A stretch of DNA of 64,000 nt, from positions 27,075 through 91,074 of the forward strand of contig JAGLPV010000015.1 in the NCBI GenBank assembly GCA_023137195.1. The letters run 5' to 3'. The notes beneath the pieces are model-generated. The model was given only the letters and a program-made list of their open reading frames with translations. It ran no database searches and was not told the origin of the DNA. Shown piece by piece: positions 20,295 to 41,072 of this stretch. How positions within the stretch are numbered: position 1 is the first letter of the stretch; the number at the start of each line of letters is the position of its first letter. Source of the stretch: Candidatus Aenigmatarchaeota archaeon. GTDB lineage: Archaea; EX4484-52. The position numbers were made by a program, and so were the translations under genes.

Positions 20295-20930
20295 ATGAGC
20301 ATCGACAAAATCTATTCAATACTTGAATCTGAATTCAAAAAATACCCGATGCCTGTTGTTGATTTGATTACAATTCAGACAAAAGACCCGTATAAAATTC
20401 TGGTTGCAACAATACTTTCTGCAAGGACCAAGGACAAGACCACGAAAGAAGCGGCAGAAAGATTATTTAAACAGGCAGATTCTCTTGTATCTCTGTCAAA
20501 ATTATCTATAGAGAAAATAGAGGAATTAATATATCCTGTTGGATTTTACAAGAATAAATCAGAATATCTCCATGAACTGCCAAAAGAAATACAAATGAGA
20601 TTCTCGGGAGTAATCCCGTCCACAATTGATAATCTGGTAAGACTTCCTGGTGTTGGTAGAAAAACTGCCAACTTAGTTGTTTCAATGGCATTTAACAAGC
20701 CAGGGATATGCGTTGATGTTCATGTTCACAGGATTTGCAACCGTTTAGGGTATGTGAAGACGAATAAACCTTATGATACAGAGATGGCTTTGAGAAAAAA
20801 GCTTCCGAAAAAATACTGGACTTATTTTAATTCGTATCTGGTATCATTTGGACAGCATCTGTGCAGACCGGTTGGTCCGAAGTGTATTGAATGTCCGATA
20901 AAGGAGTATTGCGAGAAAAGATTATTTTAA
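20295..20930 (+). CDS. nth: Endonuclease III (HhH-GPD DNA glycosylase with 4Fe-4S cluster)
   Basis: HhH motif LPGVGRKTANLV and C-terminal CRPVGPKCIECPIKEYC (Cx6Cx2Cx5C). Confidence 0.9.
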   Translation: MSIDKIYSILESEFKKYPMPVVDLITIQTKDPYKILVATILSARTKDKTTKEAAERLFKQADSLVSLSKLSIEKIEELIYPVGFYKNKSEYLHELPKEIQMRFSGVIPSTIDNLVRLPGVGRKTANLVVSMAFNKPGICVDVHVHRICNRLGYVKTNKPYDTEMALRKKLPKKYWTYFNSYLVSFGQHLCRPVGPKCIECPIKEYCEKRLF

Positions 20931-22847
20931 AAATTCCTTTATTTGTTCAATGTGAGGATAATTTCTTTCTTTTAGTATTCTTATGATTTCATTTTTGTCT
21001 TCTATTGCTTCAGGAACATTTTTTGCTCCATTTTTTCTCAAATATTCTACAAAGATTTTATCATTTATTATTGCATCTTTGAAATTTGTGTTTTTTACTT
21101 TTAAACCAGAATATTCTTGTACATTCAACATAACCGCTTTCGTCAGATCCATTATAGATAAATCTATATTATGCAATATTGTTCCAGACAGATTACCACT
21201 CATTCCATCCATTAACTCAACAGATGACAAATCAGCCATGAAAAAATTAGCTTCAAATAAATTGGCATTGTATAATGAGGCACCATTCAAACTAGCACCA
21301 GATAAATTAACTTGAGTTAAATCAGCATCATTTAAATAAGCCCCAGATAAATCTGCTCTGGATAAATCTGCGCAGTATAAACTAGCCCCGTTTAAATCAG
21401 CATTGGATAAATCAGCCCCACTCAAATTGGTTTTGGGCAAATAACTATTCCTTAAATTAGCATCCATTAATCTGGATTCAGATAAATTGGATTTTGTTAA
21501 AATGGCTTCACTTAAATCAATTTCGTATAAGTCAAGTCCAGATAAATCAACTTCATTTAAATCAACTGTTTTTACTTCTTTTCTCAATTCATTAAATTCA
21601 TCAACTTTTCCTGTTTTTAGGAGTTGAATAAAAGTTTCTTTATTGGGCGTTACATTAATTTCTTTTGGAACAGTTATTATTATTTTTTTGTACTTCGACA
21701 ATTTATCGTCATCAAGAGGCGTTATTTTATCAATTATTCTATCGTCTTTTTTATTTTTATTGAGGAATTTACTTAAATTTCTATTATCTTTGAATTTATC
21801 GAGACGTTCTCCAAACTGACCATTTGAGTTCGCCATAAAGTCTTTTTTTAATTTTTTGCGATTTTCTTTTTTAAAAATATGATTATAAAAATCATTCCAT
21901 TTAAATCTCATGATTGTTAAAATTAGATGCACCTCTATATCAAGTTCGGTCTTTTCTGCTTTCAAAAGTTCGTAACCTAAAATATACACATTTATGAATC
22001 TTTTAATATCTCTTGGCGTTCCGGTAATTGTTTCTGAAATAATATCTTTGTATTCTCTTAATACTGCATATTCTTTTCCTTCTTCATTTGTTATTTCTTT
22101 CAGATATTTTTTGAATTCATCATTATCCCACTCTGGCATTAAGACGGGTATTTGAATTATTTTTTCAAGATAATTGTCGCCCTTAATTTCCAAATCTTTA
22201 TATTTTTCCTCTATTGCTTTTTCAACAATATCCTTACTCATAGCTATTACATAAACAAATCCCTTGATGTCGAGAAAAACCTTAAATGATTCAATGATTT
22301 CAATAACTTTGTCTGGTCTACACCTATCGAGGTCATCAATAAAAACAACTATTTTTTTATTTTTTAGATTATTTTCAATTTTCTTTAAACTATCATAATA
22401 TTGACTTTCTATTTCTTCAAGTTTTGTTACATCTGGTTTTTTATCCCTATTGGAGATACCAATACTACCCTTGGCAAGACCCATATTTCCTTCAAGCCCA
22501 CATTTTAGTTCAATTGAATTTAAAAAATTAGAAAGAGCCGATACAATCTTTTCTAATTTCTCGTCTTTTTTAATTGTATGAATTATTGTCCCCAAAAGAG
22601 GAATTAATGCAAATGTTTTTTCCTGCTGACATCTCCACGCATCAAACCAGACAATTACAGGAGGATTGCTCTTTTTGTGTTCCAATTTACTAATTATATT
22701 TTTCATTAAACTGGTTTTGCCAGTTCCCCATTCTCCTAATATGCCAATAGTAAAGGGAGAATCCGAATCTATAATTATATTGGATAAAGCTTCAGCATAT
22801 TCCTTAAATGCATCTTCTGCTGGAATATCAGTAATTATTTTTGCCAT
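20922..22847 (-). CDS. KAP-family P-loop NTPase fused to a C-terminal pentapeptide-repeat domain
   Basis: GILGEWGTGKTSLMKNI (Walker A), FDAWRCQ and VVFIDDLDRC (Walker B) are typical of KAP NTPases. The C-terminus is a long run of A(D/N)LSx pentapeptides (DLSGADLSNADLNGASLYCADLSRADLSGAYLNDADL...). Confidence 0.75.
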   Translation of the reverse strand: MAKIITDIPAEDAFKEYAEALSNIIIDSDSPFTIGILGEWGTGKTSLMKNIISKLEHKKSNPPVIVWFDAWRCQQEKTFALIPLLGTIIHTIKKDEKLEKIVSALSNFLNSIELKCGLEGNMGLAKGSIGISNRDKKPDVTKLEEIESQYYDSLKKIENNLKNKKIVVFIDDLDRCRPDKVIEIIESFKVFLDIKGFVYVIAMSKDIVEKAIEEKYKDLEIKGDNYLEKIIQIPVLMPEWDNDEFKKYLKEITNEEGKEYAVLREYKDIISETITGTPRDIKRFINVYILGYELLKAEKTELDIEVHLILTIMRFKWNDFYNHIFKKENRKKLKKDFMANSNGQFGERLDKFKDNRNLSKFLNKNKKDDRIIDKITPLDDDKLSKYKKIIITVPKEINVTPNKETFIQLLKTGKVDEFNELRKEVKTVDLNEVDLSGLDLYEIDLSEAILTKSNLSESRLMDANLRNSYLPKTNLSGADLSNADLNGASLYCADLSRADLSGAYLNDADLTQVNLSGASLNGASLYNANLFEANFFMADLSSVELMDGMSGNLSGTILHNIDLSIMDLTKAVMLNVQEYSGLKVKNTNFKDAIINDKIFVEYLRKNGAKNVPEAIEDKNEIIRILKERNYPHIEQIKEFLK

Positions 22848-33453: not shown

Positions 33454-36400
33454 ATGAGAAAAGCTCAAGTTTTACCCCTTAGTCTAATCGTGATAACGTT
33501 AATTCTTACTATTTATTATGTCGGCGGGACATTTTTCAAGGATGTCTCTCTCACAAAACAAGAAACAATGAATTATTATGTGGAAAATGCAAATGAAAAC
33601 GTGCAATTGATTAAACAGGCATTTGAAAAAACGGCATTATTCTGGGGGGTTATGAAAACTGCGGATGAGTTGGCTGAGAGCGGGGGAATTAGCAGTGCTG
33701 ACCTTGCCCTCGGTGCTGCAGACTCTGATAATTTCTGCCCACGGATGAACACTTCTTTAATAGGAGGAGAGAATATACTATACTGGGCATTGGCAGGAAA
33801 CAAGAGGATTGTAAAAAGAGTGCCTTTTATATATTATCTTGACAAAGAAACAACCGCCTATGATGTTACATTTCCTCTCCTTAATAAAGCCCAGCACGAG
33901 CAATATCTGAAAGATGTATCTAATAAGGTTTACAATTTGTCTATGACTATCCAGGTGTTATTCCTGAAACATGGAACAGTCAACATCACTTTTAACCAGG
34001 ATACGAGATATGCCACGTATATTATTGATGATACAGAAAAAGACGGGATTTATGAAATAAATTTCTTAAATGATAGTTTTATTCGCTCAACAAATGATGT
34101 TGATATAAGCATTAGAGGGGAAGATACAGCAGGAAACGTTGAAAAAATCGCAAAAATAAAGCAGATTGTCGTCTCAATATATAATGGGACTGTTGTTTTT
34201 GGACCTAATTCAATATTAAACAGTCACCTTACTGCCCCTGTAGCAAACCTTAATACAGAACTTGGCATAAATGCAGACGAAGAGATAAAAATATCTGTAG
34301 GCACTTTTGATGGTTCTTTTTCAAGAAAAACAACAAGTCCTAACAGTCCGGTATCTTCGCTTATGTGGGCAAGTGATGTGGGAATTGTCGCTACAATGAA
34401 AGATCCTTTTGATGATTCTGTTGATGCAGTCAAGATCAGGAGTAGGGGTCTTGTTGATGAAGATGTGTATATTCGGTACTGGTACCTGTACGATGCAGGG
34501 ATTTATTTTATAAACAATCTCGATGGATTGGTCAAGGCAAGGATTTGGGATAGGTTAAATACACTTGAGGATTATTATACAGACGTAGGTGATCAAGTTT
34601 GTGGGAAACCCGGGTGTCAAGTCAATGATAGTAGCACACGATCTTATTCAGAAGAGGATATTTATGATGAAATAGATGCCGGTCTTTCAGCATTAACTAC
34701 TCGTCTAAATAATGCGTATAGTTCTGCGGGCATAGAGTGGAGTGTATCTGCACCAAGAGCAATGCTTGATGATACGTCATTAGATACCAATTATAAGCAT
34801 ATGTGCAGTTCTTCTGTTGAAACAAATAGAACTGGCAATATAGTATATAAAGACAGTTACTTGAGCAAATGCACTCAAGACGGGACGTTATGTGGTGGGA
34901 AAACATGCATTAGAAGGAAGTCCTGTCCTACTTGTTATTACACTGTTGGGTGGCAGAATAAAAAATATAATACATGCACTTATTATTATGGTCATATATA
35001 TATTGTAAAAAATATCCCTGTCCTTGTAGAAATAACAGACACAAAATATCAAATTACTGACTCAAACGGGAATCAAAAAAATCCTACGATTAAATTCTTT
35101 GCAGAGATAGATAAAGTACAAGACAATTGCTGCAATAGCGGCAATACAGTATGCAGTTCATTAAGAAACAGCCATTGTTCAAATCCGTATGGGAAAATAA
35201 CTCCTGTTGCGCCTCCAGAGGTAAATCTTCCTCTTAATATTACCGATGTATTTGTATCTGATATAAATGAAAACAATGTGACAATAAACTGGCAATCAAC
35301 AAAGGATGCCACTTCTGTGCTCGTGGTTAAAAATTCATTGGGTGCTACTGTCTATTCCCATGCATATTCTTTAGATACTTTATTTGACCAAATAGTGACT
35401 GGTCTTGCAGAGGATCAGGTGTATACTTACGATATCACTGTAACTTCCGGGGCAGTAACAGATTCCTATTCTGATACGTTCACAACACATAAGACAGATA
35501 CTCCTCCTTCACCCGATCCTTTTTGCACCATAACAATAAATCCTCCTGTTGGTGGAGCTATCCTTTCGGGAACTGTAACTATAACTGCAACAGTAACCTG
35601 TCCTCCGGCCATAGGCAATATAGTTGCGGCAGATAATGTTTCATTTATGCTGGAGCAAGATTACGCACCAACCAGTTCTGCCTTGGCAGGACTAACAGCG
35701 ACATATAATCTAAATTGGGACTCTGAAGTAATATTAGAGGATGGATGGAAAAATATAAGCGCAAAATTCACAAAAACTGGGAAAAGTGTAAATGATAGAA
35801 TTCTTGTGATATTGAACAACGGTCAGGTTACATTGAATGTCAATGATATTGAAATAATACAGATGTCACTCACAACAGTAGATGTTATCGTTGACTTAAA
35901 CAAAGGCAGTCCGATGGTGACAACTCCTAAGCTTCTGAACCCAGATGATACAGACACGGGCATAATCCCTACTGAATCGCCTGCCAATACATATACATTT
36001 AGTCTTGCTGGTCTTAGTCCAGACACACACTATCCTACCACCGGAGCTAATGATAATTATACTTTTTATGCAACTGATGGAGCAGATATAGTGGAGAGGA
36101 ATATTTCATTTACAACAAACCCAAAAATTACCATTTCTACACTGGATACAACAGCAGAGGTTGTTGTTGAGACTACCCGGTCTGCATTAACCATGAAATT
36201 AGAAGATCATAATGGTGTTGGTGCAGGACCGCCGAACCAGATAGGAAACATATATACTTTCAATCTTAATGGGCTCAGCGCAGACACTCGCTATCCTCAC
36301 CCAACAGATATGACAAAATTTTATACTCTTAAAATAAATGATGCCGGAACAATAGAGGAATGTGATAGTCTTTGGTTCCAGACAAAGACATCATGCAAAA

Positions 36401-36690
36401 TAGAGATAATAACGCCTTCTTCCGGGATTGTTAAAGGAATAAAGACAATACAAGTAGATGTAACGGAATGTCCTAATGATATTACGGAAAATGTTAATGT
36501 TATTGTTAATGGTGGGGTTTTTTCAACAGTGATTAGTCCATCTTTTACTGGTCCAGACCACACGAAATCAGAATACATAACTTCATGGAATACCGCTATG
36601 GATGTAAATGGAACTTATGATCTTGATGCTTCTTTTACAAAGTTAGGCAAAACAATAACCGATAGTATAATTGTAACAATAGACAATTGA
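33454..36690 (+). CDS. Giant extracellular protein with FN3/Ig-like repeats
   Basis: N-terminal hydrophobic anchor. An FN3-like segment (NITDVFVSDINENNVTINWQSTKDATSVLVV). Two related Cys-bracketed Ig-like modules (CTITINPPVGGAILSGTVTITATVTC and CKIEIITPSSGIVKGIKTIQVDVTEC). Confidence 0.55.
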   Translation: MRKAQVLPLSLIVITLILTIYYVGGTFFKDVSLTKQETMNYYVENANENVQLIKQAFEKTALFWGVMKTADELAESGGISSADLALGAADSDNFCPRMNTSLIGGENILYWALAGNKRIVKRVPFIYYLDKETTAYDVTFPLLNKAQHEQYLKDVSNKVYNLSMTIQVLFLKHGTVNITFNQDTRYATYIIDDTEKDGIYEINFLNDSFIRSTNDVDISIRGEDTAGNVEKIAKIKQIVVSIYNGTVVFGPNSILNSHLTAPVANLNTELGINADEEIKISVGTFDGSFSRKTTSPNSPVSSLMWASDVGIVATMKDPFDDSVDAVKIRSRGLVDEDVYIRYWYLYDAGIYFINNLDGLVKARIWDRLNTLEDYYTDVGDQVCGKPGCQVNDSSTRSYSEEDIYDEIDAGLSALTTRLNNAYSSAGIEWSVSAPRAMLDDTSLDTNYKHMCSSSVETNRTGNIVYKDSYLSKCTQDGTLCGGKTCIRRKSCPTCYYTVGWQNKKYNTCTYYYGHIYIVKNIPVLVEITDTKYQITDSNGNQKNPTIKFFAEIDKVQDNCCNSGNTVCSSLRNSHCSNPYGKITPVAPPEVNLPLNITDVFVSDINENNVTINWQSTKDATSVLVVKNSLGATVYSHAYSLDTLFDQIVTGLAEDQVYTYDITVTSGAVTDSYSDTFTTHKTDTPPSPDPFCTITINPPVGGAILSGTVTITATVTCPPAIGNIVAADNVSFMLEQDYAPTSSALAGLTATYNLNWDSEVILEDGWKNISAKFTKTGKSVNDRILVILNNGQVTLNVNDIEIIQMSLTTVDVIVDLNKGSPMVTTPKLLNPDDTDTGIIPTESPANTYTFSLAGLSPDTHYPTTGANDNYTFYATDGADIVERNISFTTNPKITISTLDTTAEVVVETTRSALTMKLEDHNGVGAGPPNQIGNIYTFNLNGLSADTRYPHPTDMTKFYTLKINDAGTIEECDSLWFQTKTSCKIEIITPSSGIVKGIKTIQVDVTECPNDITENVNVIVNGGVFSTVISPSFTGPDHTKSEYITSWNTAMDVNGTYDLDASFTKLGKTITDSIIVTIDN

Positions 36691-36691
36691 A

Positions 36692-37567
36692 TCAGACAAA
36701 ACAAGATAGGATGAGTCCCAGAACCACGAAAACAGACAGATTAATTGTTTTTTGTATCTTTAATGTATCAATACCACCTGCTTTTAATTTTTCAATATCC
36801 TGGTGTGTTATTGGTCGAAAAGGAGAGATGACCTCTTTTTTATTCATGTAATTGTTCATCATCTTCTGACGGAAAATTGAATTTATGAACATTGGAATAT
36901 TCTGCCTCGTGAATTTTTCTTTTGTTCGGATTACAAACTCCGCGGGAATCATGCCGGCTCGCAACTGGTTTGTCGGGCACCATATTGAAAAAGAATCTGT
37001 GATTACATTAAATGCGAAAACAGCAAATAGCAAGACCAGGGAATTTTCCAGTGAAGCAATTGAATTCAATGCAATGAAAAAATACATATCTGCAAGGAAA
37101 TAAAGCAGCATTTTGTTTTTATTCAACAATTTCATTGTTTTGTTTTTGCCCATCCTGTTCAAAAAAACCTCTATGCAGAAGAATAAAAGGGCAGATAAAA
37201 TAAAGGAGATTCTTTGGTTTTTCAATACGACCATGAAAAGGGAATTGTAAAAGAACATTGCAAGAAAAAAAGAATAATAATATTCTATCTGCTTTCTTGT
37301 TTTGCTGGGGTATTTTACCTGCTCCTCTTCTTTGTAGAATATTGTTTTTTTGGAAAGAGAGTATAGAAATACATAAGCAAAATACAAAATTACTGTGTTT
37401 TTAAGTACGCTTTCTGCGATGTATGGGTTTGGGTTAAAGAAGAACAAAACCAAGACTCCGGTAAAATAAAGGGTTGCTGTCTTTCTGCCCATTACTTTTA
37501 GAAAAACCAAAATCAGGCAAATCAATATTAATTTTGCCATGACAATAAATAATGGTGGTATAATCAT
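36692..37567 (-). CDS. Polytopic membrane protein, last gene of the radical-SAM peptide operon
   Basis: 291 aa with about 7 hydrophobic helices and a soluble basic insert before the last helix. Its ATG lies 3 nt after the stop of the upstream rSAM gene. No family motif recognised. Confidence 0.5.
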   Translation of the reverse strand: MIIPPLFIVMAKLILICLILVFLKVMGRKTATLYFTGVLVLFFFNPNPYIAESVLKNTVILYFAYVFLYSLSKKTIFYKEEEQVKYPSKTRKQIEYYYSFFLAMFFYNSLFMVVLKNQRISFILSALLFFCIEVFLNRMGKNKTMKLLNKNKMLLYFLADMYFFIALNSIASLENSLVLLFAVFAFNVITDSFSIWCPTNQLRAGMIPAEFVIRTKEKFTRQNIPMFINSIFRQKMMNNYMNKKEVISPFRPITHQDIEKLKAGGIDTLKIQKTINLSVFVVLGLILSCFV

Positions 37568-37570
37568 AAT

Positions 37571-38956
37571 CTATTCTTCTGTCTTCAATATTGCCTTAAA
37601 ATAGTCAATATATTTTTTATCATTTAGTCTTTTGAACAGGTAATCCAGTATGACTTTATTTACATAACAGTCGAAATCGCCCGGTGTTTTTGCGACAAAA
37701 CTCCCGTAAGTGGCATAAGTCATGACAGCACAGTTTCCGCAGAAATTATTGTATGCGCATGTGTCGCACAATGGCTGGAATTCCTGTGTGCGTGTTCTCA
37801 AATCCAGAGTATCCATTACAATCTGGCTGAAGGTTGTTGTCTTTATATTCCCTACTTTCAATTCAGGTATGCTTCTTGCAATGTCGCAGGGATAAATATC
37901 TCCGTTTGGCGTAATGGAAACCTGGGTCATTGCCGCTCCGCAGGGCATTCTCATACACATATATCTTTTTACAGGAAAGATTATGTTTTTTATAAATGTA
38001 GTTATGTTTCGGTCTGCCATCAGGTATTTTTTTTCGTTGAATAAAAAGACGCAATACTCAAATGAGTCTTTCAAAAAGTCTGCAAATTCTTTTTTGCCCG
38101 GGGTCAAATAAGTGTTTTTTTTGCCCCTGCCCAGCTCATTTACGGCGCGCAGATAAATGCCGTTTCTTCCCAGTTTTATGTACTCGTCAATTATTGCCCT
38201 TGCGCCAACATCAATTGATTTTTTTGTGATTGTGGGCATTGTGCCCACTGTTCTTTTTCTTTTTTCAAAATAATCGCACCACTTCACTACTGCATCATAA
38301 CTGCCTCTTCCGTCAATAAAACTTCTTTGGGCATCATGAAGTTCTCTTGGACCGTCAAGGGATGAAGAAAGACCTATGTTGTTTTCCAGGATGTAATCTG
38401 CTATTTCTAGGTTCATCAGGGTGAGATTGGATACGATTGTTGCGCTTGCAAGGGTCTTGTTGTATTTTTTTTTCCTTTTGTTGAATTCTTCCAGGATATA
38501 TTTTATTTTGTCAAACCTCAGCAATGGCTCTCCGCCCTGGAATTCAATTGTTATGTTCTTGTGGGGGAGATTTAGGATAAAATCAAGATATGCCTCAATT
38601 GTCCTGTCGTCCATGTCCAGATTCTCTTCTTCCCTGGTTCCGGCATTTGCATGGCAATAAAGGCAACCCAAATTGCACCTGTGTGTGAGATTGACAATGC
38701 AATTCATAAATATGGATTTGTTCTGCATGTATTGCATACCAGTAAGAGCAATAACATCTTTTGTGTTTTGTGTGTCAAGTAAAATCTTGTTTTCGACTAG
38801 CTTTTTTGTCCAGTTCTTATTTTGCCTGTATTGACCATTATTTAATGCCCTATACTCTTTTTCAGACAGCAATGCATAAGTTCCGCATCTGGTTGTTACC
38901 AAAAACAGGTCTTTGTCTATTTTCCTTGAAAAATACTCGTTTAGTACTGGTTCCAT
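37571..38956 (-). CDS. Radical SAM / SPASM-domain peptide-maturase-like protein
   Basis: CNLGCLYC (Cx3Cx2C) and EFQGGEPLL. C-terminal PCGAA...NGDIYPCD and CDTCAYNNFCGNC (SPASM CxxCx5Cx3C). About 85 aa precede the cluster motif and could be a peptide-binding domain. Confidence 0.8.
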   Translation of the reverse strand: MEPVLNEYFSRKIDKDLFLVTTRCGTYALLSEKEYRALNNGQYRQNKNWTKKLVENKILLDTQNTKDVIALTGMQYMQNKSIFMNCIVNLTHRCNLGCLYCHANAGTREEENLDMDDRTIEAYLDFILNLPHKNITIEFQGGEPLLRFDKIKYILEEFNKRKKKYNKTLASATIVSNLTLMNLEIADYILENNIGLSSSLDGPRELHDAQRSFIDGRGSYDAVVKWCDYFEKRKRTVGTMPTITKKSIDVGARAIIDEYIKLGRNGIYLRAVNELGRGKKNTYLTPGKKEFADFLKDSFEYCVFLFNEKKYLMADRNITTFIKNIIFPVKRYMCMRMPCGAAMTQVSITPNGDIYPCDIARSIPELKVGNIKTTTFSQIVMDTLDLRTRTQEFQPLCDTCAYNNFCGNCAVMTYATYGSFVAKTPGDFDCYVNKVILDYLFKRLNDKKYIDYFKAILKTEE

Positions 38957-38969
38957 ATTGCATCATTTG

Positions 38970-40736
38970 TCATTGTCTGGGGTTAAACTCACCTATCCCA
39001 TATTCTTTTATGTAGTTTGACCAGACGCCGTCGCATTTAGTCCTGTAAAATGAACAGGTTTTGCATATGTTGTTGTTTGCAGCTTCCTGGCTTTCTCTAT
39101 CATACAAAGGCATTCTTTTTTGCCTCAATGAATTTATGTTTTTGTAATTTTTTAAAACACAGATAGGGAACATGTCTACCTGACAATTTATTTTTTTTGA
39201 TTTTGCAAAGTTTATTGCAGAATCCATGTAAGGGGCTACTTTGCCTGCTTTTATAGAAAGTATTTTCTTGTTTCTTATTGCAGAGCCGTTTATACTTAGG
39301 AAACTAAAAATAATGCTTGTTTTGCCGGGGAATCTCGTGTGTAGAAAATCCACTATGTCTTTTAGATATATGTAATTCATCTTATGCATGACTATCTTTA
39401 TTATTATGGCGCAATTGTTGTTTACTAAGTTCTCAATGCCATTTAGTGTTTCGTTGAAACTTCCCTTTCTTTGTGTGATTTTGTCATGCAGTTCTGCATT
39501 GTGCCCGTGAATATCAATGCAAAAACGAGTTATTCCTGCTTGAATTATATTTTTCGCAAAAATATCATCCTTTAATTTTCTGCCATTTGTAGTTATGGAG
39601 ACATTGTCTGTGTATTTTTTTATGTGTTTTATCAAAGGAATTATGTCCTTAAATATTGTCGGCTCTCCGCCCATCAATACAATAGAATCCTGTTTTCTTA
39701 ATTTAAGCAAATCAATCTTTTCCTTTATTTTTTCCGGGGTCTTGTCGTTGGATGGGTTGTTTCCGTTTTCAGAGCAAAAAAGACAGTCATTATTGCATGC
39801 GCCGCATACATCAAAAACGATTGTTTTCTTATTTTCTTTTTTTTCCTGCTTTAATTCGCCTGTTCCAAACGCATCATAATAGCTGGACCATGTGCCATAG
39901 CATTTTTTGTTCAAATCGCATGAATAACATTCCGGGGCAGCTCCATGTTCATCTGTTTTATTCTGCACTTCCTTTGAAGGTGACCTATATAGGGAAACTG
40001 TGTCTGGCTGCTGCCCGGCATAATTCCGATATTCCTTACTAAGAACGCACAAAGGAATAGAATACAAAACCATGTTGATATTATATTTATTTGCGATATC
40101 TATTGCCTTATAGACATAAGGAATATAATCTGTAAAGGAAACTGCAACTTTGTCTTTAGATGCCAGTGCCATCCCCCTGATATCCAGCCCGTTTATTGAC
40201 ATATTCTTTACTGAAGGGAAATTCTTTGCGACAAACTCGACAATCTGCGGCATGTCTTTATAATTTAGCTTTGTGACTATTATTTTTACAGTTACAGGAA
40301 CATTTAGTTGGGATAAATTTTTTATTCCCTGGTGGGTCTCTCTAAAACTCCCTTTTACCTGTGTGAGTTCATCGTGTTTTTCCTCTTTCCAGTGATGCAA
40401 TGCAGTAATGACGCTTCTTATATTGTATCCTGAAAATTCTCCGGCAAATGCAAAATTGCAAAATCTCCTGCCGTTTGTAAGCAGAGAGTAATGCAAATAA
40501 GGATATTTTTGACCCAGGTATGATAAAATATACAAAAAATCTTCTCTTACTGTCGGCTCACCACCAGAAAGTTCAATAAGCCCAATGTCCTTGTTTTTTT
40601 CCAGGCGATTATTAAAGAAATCCAAAACTTCTTTTTTTGTCATATTCTTATTCCTGTTGGAATGCGCATCCACAACACAAATAAGACAATTATTATTGCA
40701 CCTGTATCCGAGCGCGCAATAGCATTTTGTAAACAT
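38970..40736 (-). CDS. Fused tandem double radical SAM protein
   Basis: There are two homologous halves. Half 1 has YRCNNNCLIC, LSGGEPTV, LTNGRRF, HDELTQVKGSFRETHQGIKNL and CYSCDLNKKCYGTWSSYY. Half 2 has CGACNNDCLFC, LMGGEPTI, TTNGRKL, HDKITQRKGSFNETLNGIENL and CKTCSFYRTKCDGVWSNY. Confidence 0.8.
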   Translation of the reverse strand: MFTKCYCALGYRCNNNCLICVVDAHSNRNKNMTKKEVLDFFNNRLEKNKDIGLIELSGGEPTVREDFLYILSYLGQKYPYLHYSLLTNGRRFCNFAFAGEFSGYNIRSVITALHHWKEEKHDELTQVKGSFRETHQGIKNLSQLNVPVTVKIIVTKLNYKDMPQIVEFVAKNFPSVKNMSINGLDIRGMALASKDKVAVSFTDYIPYVYKAIDIANKYNINMVLYSIPLCVLSKEYRNYAGQQPDTVSLYRSPSKEVQNKTDEHGAAPECYSCDLNKKCYGTWSSYYDAFGTGELKQEKKENKKTIVFDVCGACNNDCLFCSENGNNPSNDKTPEKIKEKIDLLKLRKQDSIVLMGGEPTIFKDIIPLIKHIKKYTDNVSITTNGRKLKDDIFAKNIIQAGITRFCIDIHGHNAELHDKITQRKGSFNETLNGIENLVNNNCAIIIKIVMHKMNYIYLKDIVDFLHTRFPGKTSIIFSFLSINGSAIRNKKILSIKAGKVAPYMDSAINFAKSKKINCQVDMFPICVLKNYKNINSLRQKRMPLYDRESQEAANNNICKTCSFYRTKCDGVWSNYIKEYGIGEFNPRQ

Positions 40737-40739
40737 AGC

Positions 40740-41072
40740 CTATAACCACCTAAGAGACCATGTATTGGAATGCCTGGTCCAGTTGCACCAGTCGCTCCAG
40801 TCGCACCAGTCACACCACTGCGCCCAGTTACTCCATCCAGCATGATGCGTGTTTTTTACAGAAGGGTTTGTGCTATTATTCCACCCGGAAACGCAGGTTG
40901 ATGCCTCTGCCTCCGGTGAGCTGGAAAGCAGATATCCTGCTGCTGCACCTAAAAGGACAAGCCCTGTAATAACTCCTGTTTTTTCATCATTACTCAGGTA
41001 ATTCAGAGAAAACATAGCTTTCTTGTTTTCAAGCTTGTTTTTTATCTTTTTTATTTTATCTGCAAAAGCCAT
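40740..41072 (-). CDS. Candidate precursor peptide with a C-terminal (W-x-x)7 Trp/Cys ladder
   Basis: 110 aa with an ATG start, and its stop lies 3 nt before the rSAM gene ATG. It has a Lys-rich N-terminus, a hydrophobic segment GVITGLVLLGAAAGYLL, the AEAS motif, then ...HHAGWSNWAQWCDWCDWSDWCNWTRHSNTWSLRWL. Confidence 0.6.
   Translation of the reverse strand: MAFADKIKKIKNKLENKKAMFSLNYLSNDEKTGVITGLVLLGAAAGYLLSSSPEAEASTCVSGWNNSTNPSVKNTHHAGWSNWAQWCDWCDWSDWCNWTRHSNTWSLRWL

What the first reader, a model, noticed from the sequence alone, without database searches (positions are those of the whole stretch)
38970..40736. Internal duplication: one polypeptide carrying two complete radical-SAM modules
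Residues ~1-295 and ~300-588 align motif for motif. The matches are CNNNCLIC/CNNDCLFC, LSGGEPTV/LMGGEPTI, LTNGRRF/TTNGRKL, HDELTQVKGSFRETHQGIKNL/HDKITQRKGSFNETLNGIENL, and CYSCDLNKKCYGTWSSYY/CKTCSFYRTKCDGVWSNY. Each half keeps its own SAM-cluster cysteines and a short auxiliary-cluster-like tail. That suggests two active sites acting on the same repetitive substrate. Tandem rSAM-rSAM fusions are uncommon.
Basis: seen in the sequence. Interest (0 to 1): 0.6.

Follow-up and report, generated by a model that had tools for sequence, protein, structure and literature searches.

The report
Fused double HxsC radical-SAM maturase
One archaeal gene really does encode two complete radical-SAM enzymes in a single chain; they are two old HxsC-type paralogues, separate genes in some relatives, in an undescribed tryptophan-repeat version of the HXS peptide-maturation system.

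Summary
ORF 38970-40736 (-) encodes 588 aa, and its halves align at 32% identity over 286 residues (E=3e-42). Each half has CxxxCxxC, GGEPT and four further cysteines. All seven cysteines per half are invariant in eight orthologues and align with the cluster cysteines of E. coli HxsC.

It is not an assembly artefact. Contigs from three independent cold-seep samples cross the junction without indels, and full-length orthologues (39-67% identity) occur in other DPANN archaeal MAGs.

Both halves match HxsC (TIGR03977) best, but neither reaches that model's cutoff alone.

This is not a recent internal duplication. N-halves form a clade with free-standing HxsC genes of related cassettes (support 98/99). 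C-halves form a clade with a second free-standing paralogue (99/97). Some relatives encode the two as separate genes flanking the precursor gene, and others have only the N-type.

The operon is: Trp-x-x repeat precursor, HxsC::HxsC, HxsB-like rSAM/SPASM enzyme, membrane protein. No HxsD lies in the window.

Fusions are not rare in this family: 95 of the 150 best cluster representatives carry 2-4 HxsC-like modules.

The chemistry and the biological role are unknown. I class this as a new variant of a known kind, of moderate interest.

The parts
38970..40736 (-). Fused two-module HxsC-type radical SAM protein (588 aa, P0001)
   Evidence: ORF and translation. TIGR03977 HxsC scores 300.6 bits over two stretches. 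Full-length orthologues of 586-608 aa occur in DPANN MAGs.
39852..40736 (-). N-type HxsC module (residues 1-295)
   Evidence: Scores 171.1 bits to TIGR03977 alone, below the 267.9 cutoff. It forms a clade with free-standing HxsC genes of Trp-repeat cassettes, support 98/99. It is more conserved than the C module in 28 of 28 orthologue pairs, 53% against 43% mean identity.
40677..40700 (-). Radical-SAM cluster motif of the N module, CNNNCLIC (C13, C17, C20)
   Evidence: Invariant in 8 orthologues. Aligns with E. coli HxsC C101/C105/C108.
39900..40049 (-). Four-cysteine auxiliary-cluster motif of the N module (C230 in PLCVL; C270, C273, C279 in CYSCDLNKKC)
   Evidence: Invariant columns. Aligns with E. 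coli HxsC C317/C342/C345/C351. The C342A/C345A mutant lowers function in E. coli (PMC13128918).
39825..39851 (-). Lys/Glu-rich inter-module linker KQEKKENKK (residues 296-304)
   Evidence: Variable in length and sequence among orthologues. Low pLDDT at 300-303. Translation.
38973..39824 (-). C-type HxsC-like module (residues 305-588)
   Evidence: Scores 140.8 bits to TIGR03977 and 122 bits to NF038332 HxsC4, both below cutoff. It forms a clade with the free-standing C-type genes of split cassettes L034 and L036, support 99/97.
39774..39797 (-). Radical-SAM cluster motif of the C module, CNNDCLFC (C314, C318, C321)
   Evidence: Invariant in 8 orthologues. Aligned with E. coli HxsC.
39033..39161 (-). 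Four-cysteine auxiliary-cluster motif of the C module (C526 in PICVL; C558, C561, C568 in CKTCSFYRTKC)
   Evidence: Invariant columns. Alignment.
40740..41072 (-). Candidate substrate (110 aa, P0003): basic N-terminus, hydrophobic helix, AEA-S site, then a C-terminal Trp-x-x ladder (WSN WAQ WCD WCD WSD WCN WTR at 40773-40835)
   Evidence: Translation. Its stop lies 4 nt before the rSAM start. Homologous Trp-ladder peptides precede the rSAM gene in L001, L002, L004, L005, L006, L012, L014, L034 and L036.
37571..38956 (-). HxsB-like radical SAM/SPASM enzyme (461 aa, P0002)
   Evidence: Best NCBIfam hit is TIGR03978 HxsB at 299.7 bits (cutoff 370). Pfam finds Radical_SAM plus SPASM. It is conserved directly downstream in all complete cassettes.
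36692..37567 (-). Conserved 291-aa polytopic membrane protein (P0004), last gene of the cassette
   Evidence: Present in L001, L002, L003, L004, L012, L034 and L036. It has an invariant L..GM.PAE motif and only a weak Arc_PepC hit, E=0.0094. No PDB fold match.

Best explanation
The gene encodes a natural fusion of two paralogous HxsC-type radical SAM enzymes, an N-type and a C-type module joined by a 9-residue linker. Each module keeps a full catalytic set: a CxxxCxxC site for the SAM-cleaving [4Fe-4S] cluster, a GGE SAM-binding motif, and four cysteines for one auxiliary cluster in a short twitch-like tail.

Shown: the fusion is real and conserved. The two modules belong to two separate old clades. 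Relatives encode the same two paralogues as separate genes in the same cassette, or carry the N-type alone.

Inferred: the fused protein works in the cytoplasm together with the downstream HxsB-like rSAM/SPASM enzyme. Their target is the small protein encoded just upstream, whose C-terminal Trp-x-x ladder is the likely site of modification. The two modules probably install different radical-mediated modifications, or act on different positions of the repeat. Fusion would fix a 1:1 ratio of two partners that otherwise assemble as a hetero-oligomer. The modified peptide is then exported through its signal-like N-terminus, possibly helped by the conserved membrane protein.

The system is an archaeal (DPANN) relative of the bacterial HXS (HxsABCD) system. 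Whether it serves antiviral defence, as in E. coli, or a cell-surface role is open.
For: Internal similarity at E=3e-42. HxsC is by far the best family for both halves. Seven cysteines per module are invariant in 8 orthologues. They align with E. coli HxsC C101/C105/C108 and C317/C342/C345/C351, and mutating these abolishes or lowers HxsA maturation (PMC13128918). Independent contigs cross the junction, and a strain variant has 13 silent against 6 replacement changes. Full-length orthologues at 39-67% identity occur in at least 8 metagenomic contigs and 3 GTDB species genomes. The N-type clade has support 98/99 and the C-type clade 99/97. Split cassettes L034 and L036 read HxsD-FeS, C-type, precursor, N-type, HxsB, membrane protein. 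One-module cassettes L012 and L014 also exist. The Trp-ladder precursor sits directly upstream in every cassette that could be read at that position. The AF2 model gives two partial TIM-barrel rSAM folds, and the nearest solved structure is the twitch-type RiPP maturase SkfB.
Against: There is no biochemical data on any HxsC-type enzyme's reaction. Even for E. coli only a '+8 Da' change and N-terminal processing are reported. Neither half reaches the TIGR03977 cutoff alone. The C module evolves faster, so a regulatory or scaffold role cannot be excluded. HxsD, the partner that binds HxsC in E. coli, is absent from the 64-kb window and from the flanks of the closest orthologues. The AF2 inter-module geometry is unreliable (pTM 0.54). 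No RNA data were found. Substrate assignment rests on gene order only.
Confidence: 0.75

Rival explanations
1. The second (C-type) module is not a working enzyme. It would be a structural or recognition partner: a cluster-bearing scaffold or chaperone that presents the peptide to the N module, perhaps standing in for the missing HxsD.
For: The C module is less conserved than the N module in 28 of 28 pairs. One orthologue has SGEEPT in place of GGEPT. HxsD is absent near the window's clade. In split cassettes the C-type gene overlaps the HxsD gene by 32 nt. One-module cassettes show that the N-type alone can suffice.
Against: All three SAM-cluster cysteines, the GGE motif and all four auxiliary cysteines are kept in 8 fused and 2 free-standing C-type proteins. 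That pattern is what purifying selection on catalysis would produce. L002 and L004 carry both HxsD and the fused protein, so the C module does not simply replace HxsD.
Confidence: 0.15
2. The two modules act on different substrates. For example, one acts on the Trp-ladder peptide and the other on another protein of the neighbourhood, such as the conserved large surface protein or a cofactor. The fusion would then reflect co-regulation only.
For: A homologous large N-terminally anchored protein lies next to every cassette. Cassettes with a single module exist.
Against: In split cassettes both paralogues directly flank the precursor gene. Multi-HxsC loci in CPR bacteria also centre on one repeat peptide.
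Confidence: 0.08
3. The fusion is an assembly or sequencing artefact, or a recent in-gene tandem duplication with no functional meaning.
For: One run (X2) has a unitig break at 39830-39833, inside the low-complexity linker.
Against: Contigs of three other samples cross the junction without indels. Eight orthologues from different studies share the same architecture. The halves are only 32% identical and fall in separate old clades.
Confidence: 0.01

Closest known systems
HxsC of the His-Xaa-Ser (HXS) system (TIGR03977; E. coli HxsABCD antiphage system, Li et al., Nat Commun 2026, PMC13128918)
   Same: It is the best-scoring family for both modules. The 3+4 cysteine pattern aligns residue for residue. 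It is paired with an HxsB-type rSAM/SPASM enzyme and an exported protein carrying a three-residue repeat.
   Different: Two modules sit in one chain instead of one. The ~100-residue N-terminal extension of E. coli HxsC is missing: the SAM motif starts at residue 13 rather than 101. Each module scores below the family cutoff. The substrate repeat is Trp-x-x, not His-x-Ser. No HxsD lies in the window. Gene order is A-CC-B-membrane protein instead of D-B-C-A. The host is an archaeon, whereas the paper places 99.7% of HXS systems in Pseudomonadota.
NF038332 'radical SAM protein HxsC4' (NCBIfam exception model)
   Same: It is the second-best family for the C module, at 122 bits.
   Different: The score is far below the model's cutoff of 500, so this is not a member. 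I could not read the model's description.
Split and single-module Trp-repeat cassettes of other DPANN archaea (loci L034, L036, L012, L014; unnamed)
   Same: They have the same precursor family, HxsB-like enzyme, membrane protein and flanking large surface protein. The N-type and C-type modules are orthologous.
   Different: The modules are separate genes on either side of the precursor gene, or only the N-type is present. HxsD is present, and in the split cassettes it is fused to an FeS domain.
SkfB and other twitch-domain radical SAM RiPP maturases (PDB 6efn)
   Same: SkfB is the closest solved structure by sequence and by fold. It has a partial TIM barrel plus a short C-terminal auxiliary-cluster domain and acts on a peptide.
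   Different: Identity is only about 17%. SkfB is a single module. The auxiliary cysteine spacing differs. The chemistry here is unknown.
Three-residue cyclophane-forming rSAM/SPASM enzymes (triceptides; e.g. PMC11499958)
   Same: Their substrate logic is an aromatic residue repeated every third position (my own knowledge of the class).
   Different: This is an analogy only. The HxsB-like enzyme scores just 64-65 bits to the cyclophane-synthase models GrrM/OscB and YhhB. HxsC-type modules lack a SPASM domain.

Membership tests
HxsC (TIGR03977 equivalog) | Score at or above the curated cutoff (267.9 bits) for one enzyme module | tested here: not met
   N half 171.1 bits and C half 140.8 bits when scanned alone. 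The whole protein passes at 300.6 bits only because two stretches add up. The E. coli HxsC control scores 404.1.
HxsC (TIGR03977 equivalog) | CxxxCxxC radical-SAM site plus GGE motif | tested here: met
   Both modules have them, invariant in 8 orthologues.
HxsC (TIGR03977 equivalog) | C-terminal second cluster site (E. coli C342/C345 region) | tested here: met
   C230/C270/C273/C279 and C526/C558/C561/C568 align with E. coli C317/C342/C345/C351.
HXS system (HxsA-D) | Adjacent HxsB (TIGR03978) rSAM/SPASM partner | tested here: inconclusive
   P0002's best hit is TIGR03978 over its full length, at 299.7 bits against a cutoff of 370. It is an HxsB-like relative but is not certified as an equivalog.
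HXS system (HxsA-D) | HxsD (TIGR03976 / PF27806) partner protein | tested here: not met
   No HxsD lies in the 64-kb window by tblastn or by a six-frame HMM search (best E=1.6). None lies in the flanks of L001, L005, L006, L009 or L010. It is present in L002, L004, L007, L012, L014, L034 and L036. The rest of the genome could not be searched.
HXS system (HxsA-D) | Effector with His-Xaa-Ser repeats | tested here: not met
   The upstream protein has Trp-x-x repeats with a single HSN after them. CPR loci L018 and L025 do carry H-x-S repeats.
HXS system (HxsA-D) | Antiphage activity by blocking DNA entry | not testable with these tools
   The PADLOC scan gives only generic viperin-like rSAM hits. 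The neighbours are housekeeping genes, not a defence island.
SPASM-domain radical SAM enzymes | SPASM domain (PF13186) with a seven-cysteine motif for two auxiliary clusters | tested here: not met
   P0001 has no SPASM hit and only four auxiliary cysteines per module. This fits a twitch-like single-cluster tail. The neighbour P0002 does have a SPASM domain.

The most novel reading that the evidence does not exclude
HxsC-type modules would form a large, unstudied class of modular radical-SAM enzymes, with 1-4 modules per chain and up to six or more per locus, acting in series on one repeat peptide. In this archaeon the N::C fusion would be a single-chain heterodimer that installs two different radical modifications on each Trp-x-x unit. 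The product would be a rigid, cross-linked tryptophan ladder exported to the surface of an ultra-small DPANN cell. This would be a new RiPP-like chemistry and possibly an archaeal counterpart of the HXS barrier to viral DNA entry.
Probability: 0.25. Interest if true: 0.8.

Novelty: new variant of a known kind. Interest (0 to 1): 0.55.

Why it matters
HxsC chemistry is unsolved. The only experimental paper reports a "+8 Da" change and could not reconstitute the enzymes (PMC13128918).

The fusion is Rosetta-stone evidence that two HxsC paralogues act together on one substrate. The split, fused and single-module cassettes form a natural series for working out what each module adds.

The fusion also gives a compact three-gene set (precursor, fused enzyme, HxsB-like enzyme) for heterologous expression.

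The survey shows that multi-module HxsC-like proteins are common in CPR and DPANN metagenomes. The paper that described HXS places 99.7% of HXS systems in Pseudomonadota and mentions no multi-module form.

Tried and rejected
- Assembly artefact: rejected.
- Recent in-gene duplication: rejected by the trees.
- HxsD in the window: sought by tblastn and by a six-frame HMM search, none found.
- Membrane protein P0004 as an A24 prepilin-type peptidase: the only evidence is a weak Arc_PepC hit (E=0.0094). There is no invariant Asp in the membrane part. The AF2 model (pLDDT 75) has no PDB match with E<0.1. Left unassigned.
- PADLOC: only generic viperin-like rSAM hits.
- RNA runs: none found.
- Literature search for tandem or two-domain radical SAM enzymes: nothing relevant. 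DPANN + radical SAM + RiPP: nothing relevant.
- AF2 of the fused protein: pTM 0.54 is too low to read the inter-module interface, and coordinates are not returned.
- A correlation between cysteine content of the Trp ladder and presence of the C-type module: none apparent by eye.

Full report
**1. Observation**

The minus-strand ORF 38970-40736 is open and encodes 588 residues. Residues 1-299 and 300-588 align at 32% identity and 50% similarity over 286 columns, with BLASTP E=3e-42. The internal repeat is therefore real.

Each half contains the following:
- a CxxxCxxC motif: C13/C17/C20 and C314/C318/C321
- a GGEPT motif
- a TNGR motif
- an HD..TQ.KGSF block
- a C-terminal CxxCx5-6C motif, preceded by a further conserved cysteine in P(L/I)CVL

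Pfam Radical_SAM matches twice, and no SPASM domain is found. The join between the halves is a 9-residue Lys/Glu linker, KQEKKENKK (39825-39851).

**2. Not an artefact**

The stretch is held by several cold-seep metagenome runs. Assembler contigs from three different samples cross the junction without any insertion or deletion. One is identical to the window. Two are strain variants. The more diverged variant has 19 substitutions in the ORF, only 6 of which change a residue, and its frame stays open.

One run has a unitig break inside the low-complexity linker. There, a 20-nt stretch is shared with an unrelated contig.

Independently, full-length orthologues of 586-608 aa at 39-67% identity and about 100% coverage occur on contigs from other studies. 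They also occur in GTDB species genomes labelled Nanohalarchaeota or Aenigmarchaeota, which are DPANN archaea.

**3. What the modules are**

Against NCBIfam the whole protein hits TIGR03977, the His-Xaa-Ser system maturase HxsC, at 300.6 bits over two stretches. Scanned separately, the N half scores 171.1 bits and the C half 140.8 bits. Both are far above any other family: the next best are HxsC4 at 78 and 122 bits and MoaA at 64 and 81 bits. Both are also below the curated cutoff of 267.9, which E. coli HxsC passes at 404. The modules are therefore HxsC-like relatives, not certified equivalogs.

In an alignment of the eight fused orthologues all seven cysteines of each module are invariant. 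They align one-to-one with E. coli HxsC C101/C105/C108 and C317/C342/C345/C351. In the 2026 study of the E. coli HXS antiphage system, C105A/C108A abolished maturation of HxsA and C342A/C345A reduced it (PMC13128918).

Each module starts about 12 residues before its SAM motif. Both therefore lack the ~100-residue N-terminal region of E. coli HxsC.

The AlphaFold2 model has mean pLDDT 76.6 and pTM 0.54. It shows two partial-barrel rSAM folds. The inter-module geometry is not reliable. The nearest solved structures are SkfB (a twitch-type peptide maturase), GDGT-MAS, NifB, viperin and MoaA.

**4. Fusion of two old paralogues, not an in-gene duplication**

In maximum-likelihood trees of single modules:
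- The eight N halves group with free-standing single-module genes from related archaeal cassettes (17 rows, support 98/99).
- The eight C halves group with two free-standing genes from L034 and L036 (10 rows, support 99/97, consistent).

E. coli HxsC falls outside both clades on a long branch. The N halves are more conserved than the C halves in all 28 orthologue pairs, at 53% against 43% mean identity.

Three architectures of the same cassette exist:
- One module: HxsD, precursor, HxsC (N-type), HxsB, membrane protein (L012, L014).
- Split: HxsD-FeS, C-type, precursor, N-type, HxsB, membrane protein (L034, L036). The HxsD and C-type genes overlap by 32 nt.
- Fused: [HxsD], precursor, N::C, HxsB, membrane protein (the window, L001, L002, L004, L005, L006). 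L007 has an additional N-type gene.

Some do, and some have only one half. The N-type is the core enzyme and the C-type is an added paralogue.

**5. The surrounding system**

Upstream of the fused gene lies a 110-aa ORF whose stop is four nucleotides before the fused gene's ATG. It has a basic N-terminus, a hydrophobic helix, an AEA-S site, and a C-terminal ladder WSN-WAQ-WCD-WCD-WSD-WCN-WTR followed by HSN. Homologous peptides with 4-10 in-register Trp-x-x units sit next to the HxsC-type gene in all related cassettes. By contrast, CPR bacterial loci with many HxsC genes carry long H-x-S repeat proteins.

Downstream of the fused gene:
- An HxsB-like rSAM/SPASM enzyme. TIGR03978 scores 299.7 bits against a cutoff of 370.
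- A conserved 291-aa membrane protein of unknown fold.

No HxsD is encoded in the 64-kb window or near the closest orthologues. The rest of the genome could not be searched because the genome tool was shut.

The neighbours are housekeeping genes: thiolase, an MBF1-like HTH protein, RNase P subunits, PEP synthase and AglB. This is not a defence island, and the placement is syntenic with L001.

**6. How common are such fusions?**

An exhaustive HMMER search of 1.84 billion cluster representatives gave 17,717 hits at E<=1e-3 and 350 at E<=1e-30. Among the 150 best, 80 carry two HxsC-like modules, 14 carry three and 1 carries four (motif counts). A two-module query favours two-module hits, so this fraction is inflated. 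The absolute number still shows that tandem fusion is recurrent in this family.

Examples from named genomes:
- a Cytophagia MAG: a 614-aa double among five modules
- Omnitrophota: 629 aa
- Nanoarchaeota: 767 aa and 1,678 aa

The published description of HXS finds 99.7% of systems in Pseudomonadota. It describes a four-gene D-B-C-A layout and mentions no multi-HxsC or archaeal forms. I found no paper on tandem HxsC or on this Trp-repeat variant.

**7. Mechanism**

Shown: there are two complete sets of cluster ligands and SAM motifs under purifying selection. The two paralogues co-occur whether fused or split. They are tightly linked to a Trp-ladder peptide and an HxsB-like enzyme.

Inferred: both modules are active radical SAM enzymes, and both act on the Trp-x-x core of the upstream peptide before its export. 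They would do different jobs, which would explain why both are retained. Fusion would enforce a 1:1 assembly.

The actual reaction is unknown. Cross-linking of the Trp side chains, as in three-residue cyclophane RiPPs, is an attractive analogy, but nothing tested here supports it.

The main rival is that the faster-evolving C module is a non-catalytic partner. It is weakened by the complete conservation of that module's catalytic motifs.

The biological role is open. I put antiviral defence, as in E. coli HXS, at roughly one in three. The housekeeping context and the invariably adjacent large surface protein fit a cell-envelope role equally well.

**8. Verdict**

The claims of rarity and of an "internal duplication" need correcting.

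This is a new variant of a known kind: an archaeal, Trp-repeat, HxsD-less HXS-type cassette with a fused pair of HxsC paralogues. Interest is moderate. It gives a clean handle on an enzyme family whose chemistry is unknown and whose modular expansion in ultra-small prokaryotes has not been described.

Earlier notes from this scan had independently reported the Trp ladder in this genome and HxsC arrays elsewhere. I reached the HXS assignment before reading them and re-tested the points I use.

Noticed in passing
window 33454-36690 (+): A 1,078-aa N-terminally anchored protein with no Pfam hit lies convergent with the cassette. Homologues (first ~590 aa, 25-53% identity) occupy the same position next to every related cassette, including the distant ones L002, L004, L034 and L036. 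This suggests a functional link. Its N-terminus, MRKAQ followed by a hydrophobic stretch, looks like a pilin-type (class III) signal, but that is only my impression.
   Followed up: partly
window 36692-37567 (-): The membrane protein that ends the cassette has an invariant L..GM.PAE motif. It has a weak hit to the C-terminal domain of archaeal A24 peptidases but no conserved Asp pair, and its AF2 model matches nothing in the PDB.
   Followed up: yes
L034 4394-5032 and L036 476-1177; also L007 3584-4201: In split cassettes HxsD is fused to a small four-cysteine 'FeS' domain (PF04060), and its gene overlaps the C-type rSAM gene by 32 nt. In cassettes with one module, or with the fused enzyme, HxsD lacks this domain or is absent.
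   Followed up: partly
L002 1-1439 and 2696-4438; L006 2426-4453; L007 502-2136: PMT_2-family glycosyltransferases recur beside the Trp-repeat cassettes in three unrelated contigs. L002 and L007 also have an extra rSAM gene. This may point to glycosylation of the peptide or of the surface protein.
   Followed up: no
L018 1714-2370; L025 11929-12294: Saccharibacteria loci with six or more separate HxsC-like genes encode long H-(A/G/S/T)-S repeat proteins with 20-40 repeats. The repeat type therefore tracks lineage: His-x-Ser in CPR bacteria and Trp-x-x in DPANN archaea.
   Followed up: partly
L020 885-5921: A Nanoarchaeota ORF of 1,678 aa contains three HxsC-like modules, and the next ORF (767 aa) contains two. 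Cluster representatives of up to 1,406 aa with four CxxxCxxC motifs were seen in the protein library.
   Followed up: no
window 39824-39843 and 41040-41057: Two ~20-nt A-rich stretches match one unrelated contig in opposite orientation, in each of two runs, and coincide with unitig breaks in run X2. This is probably low-complexity coincidence.
   Followed up: no
window 20922-22847 (-): A KAP-family P-loop NTPase is fused to a pentapeptide-repeat domain (Pfam hits). It is the only defence-like gene I saw in the window, and it lies 16 kb from the cassette.
   Followed up: no
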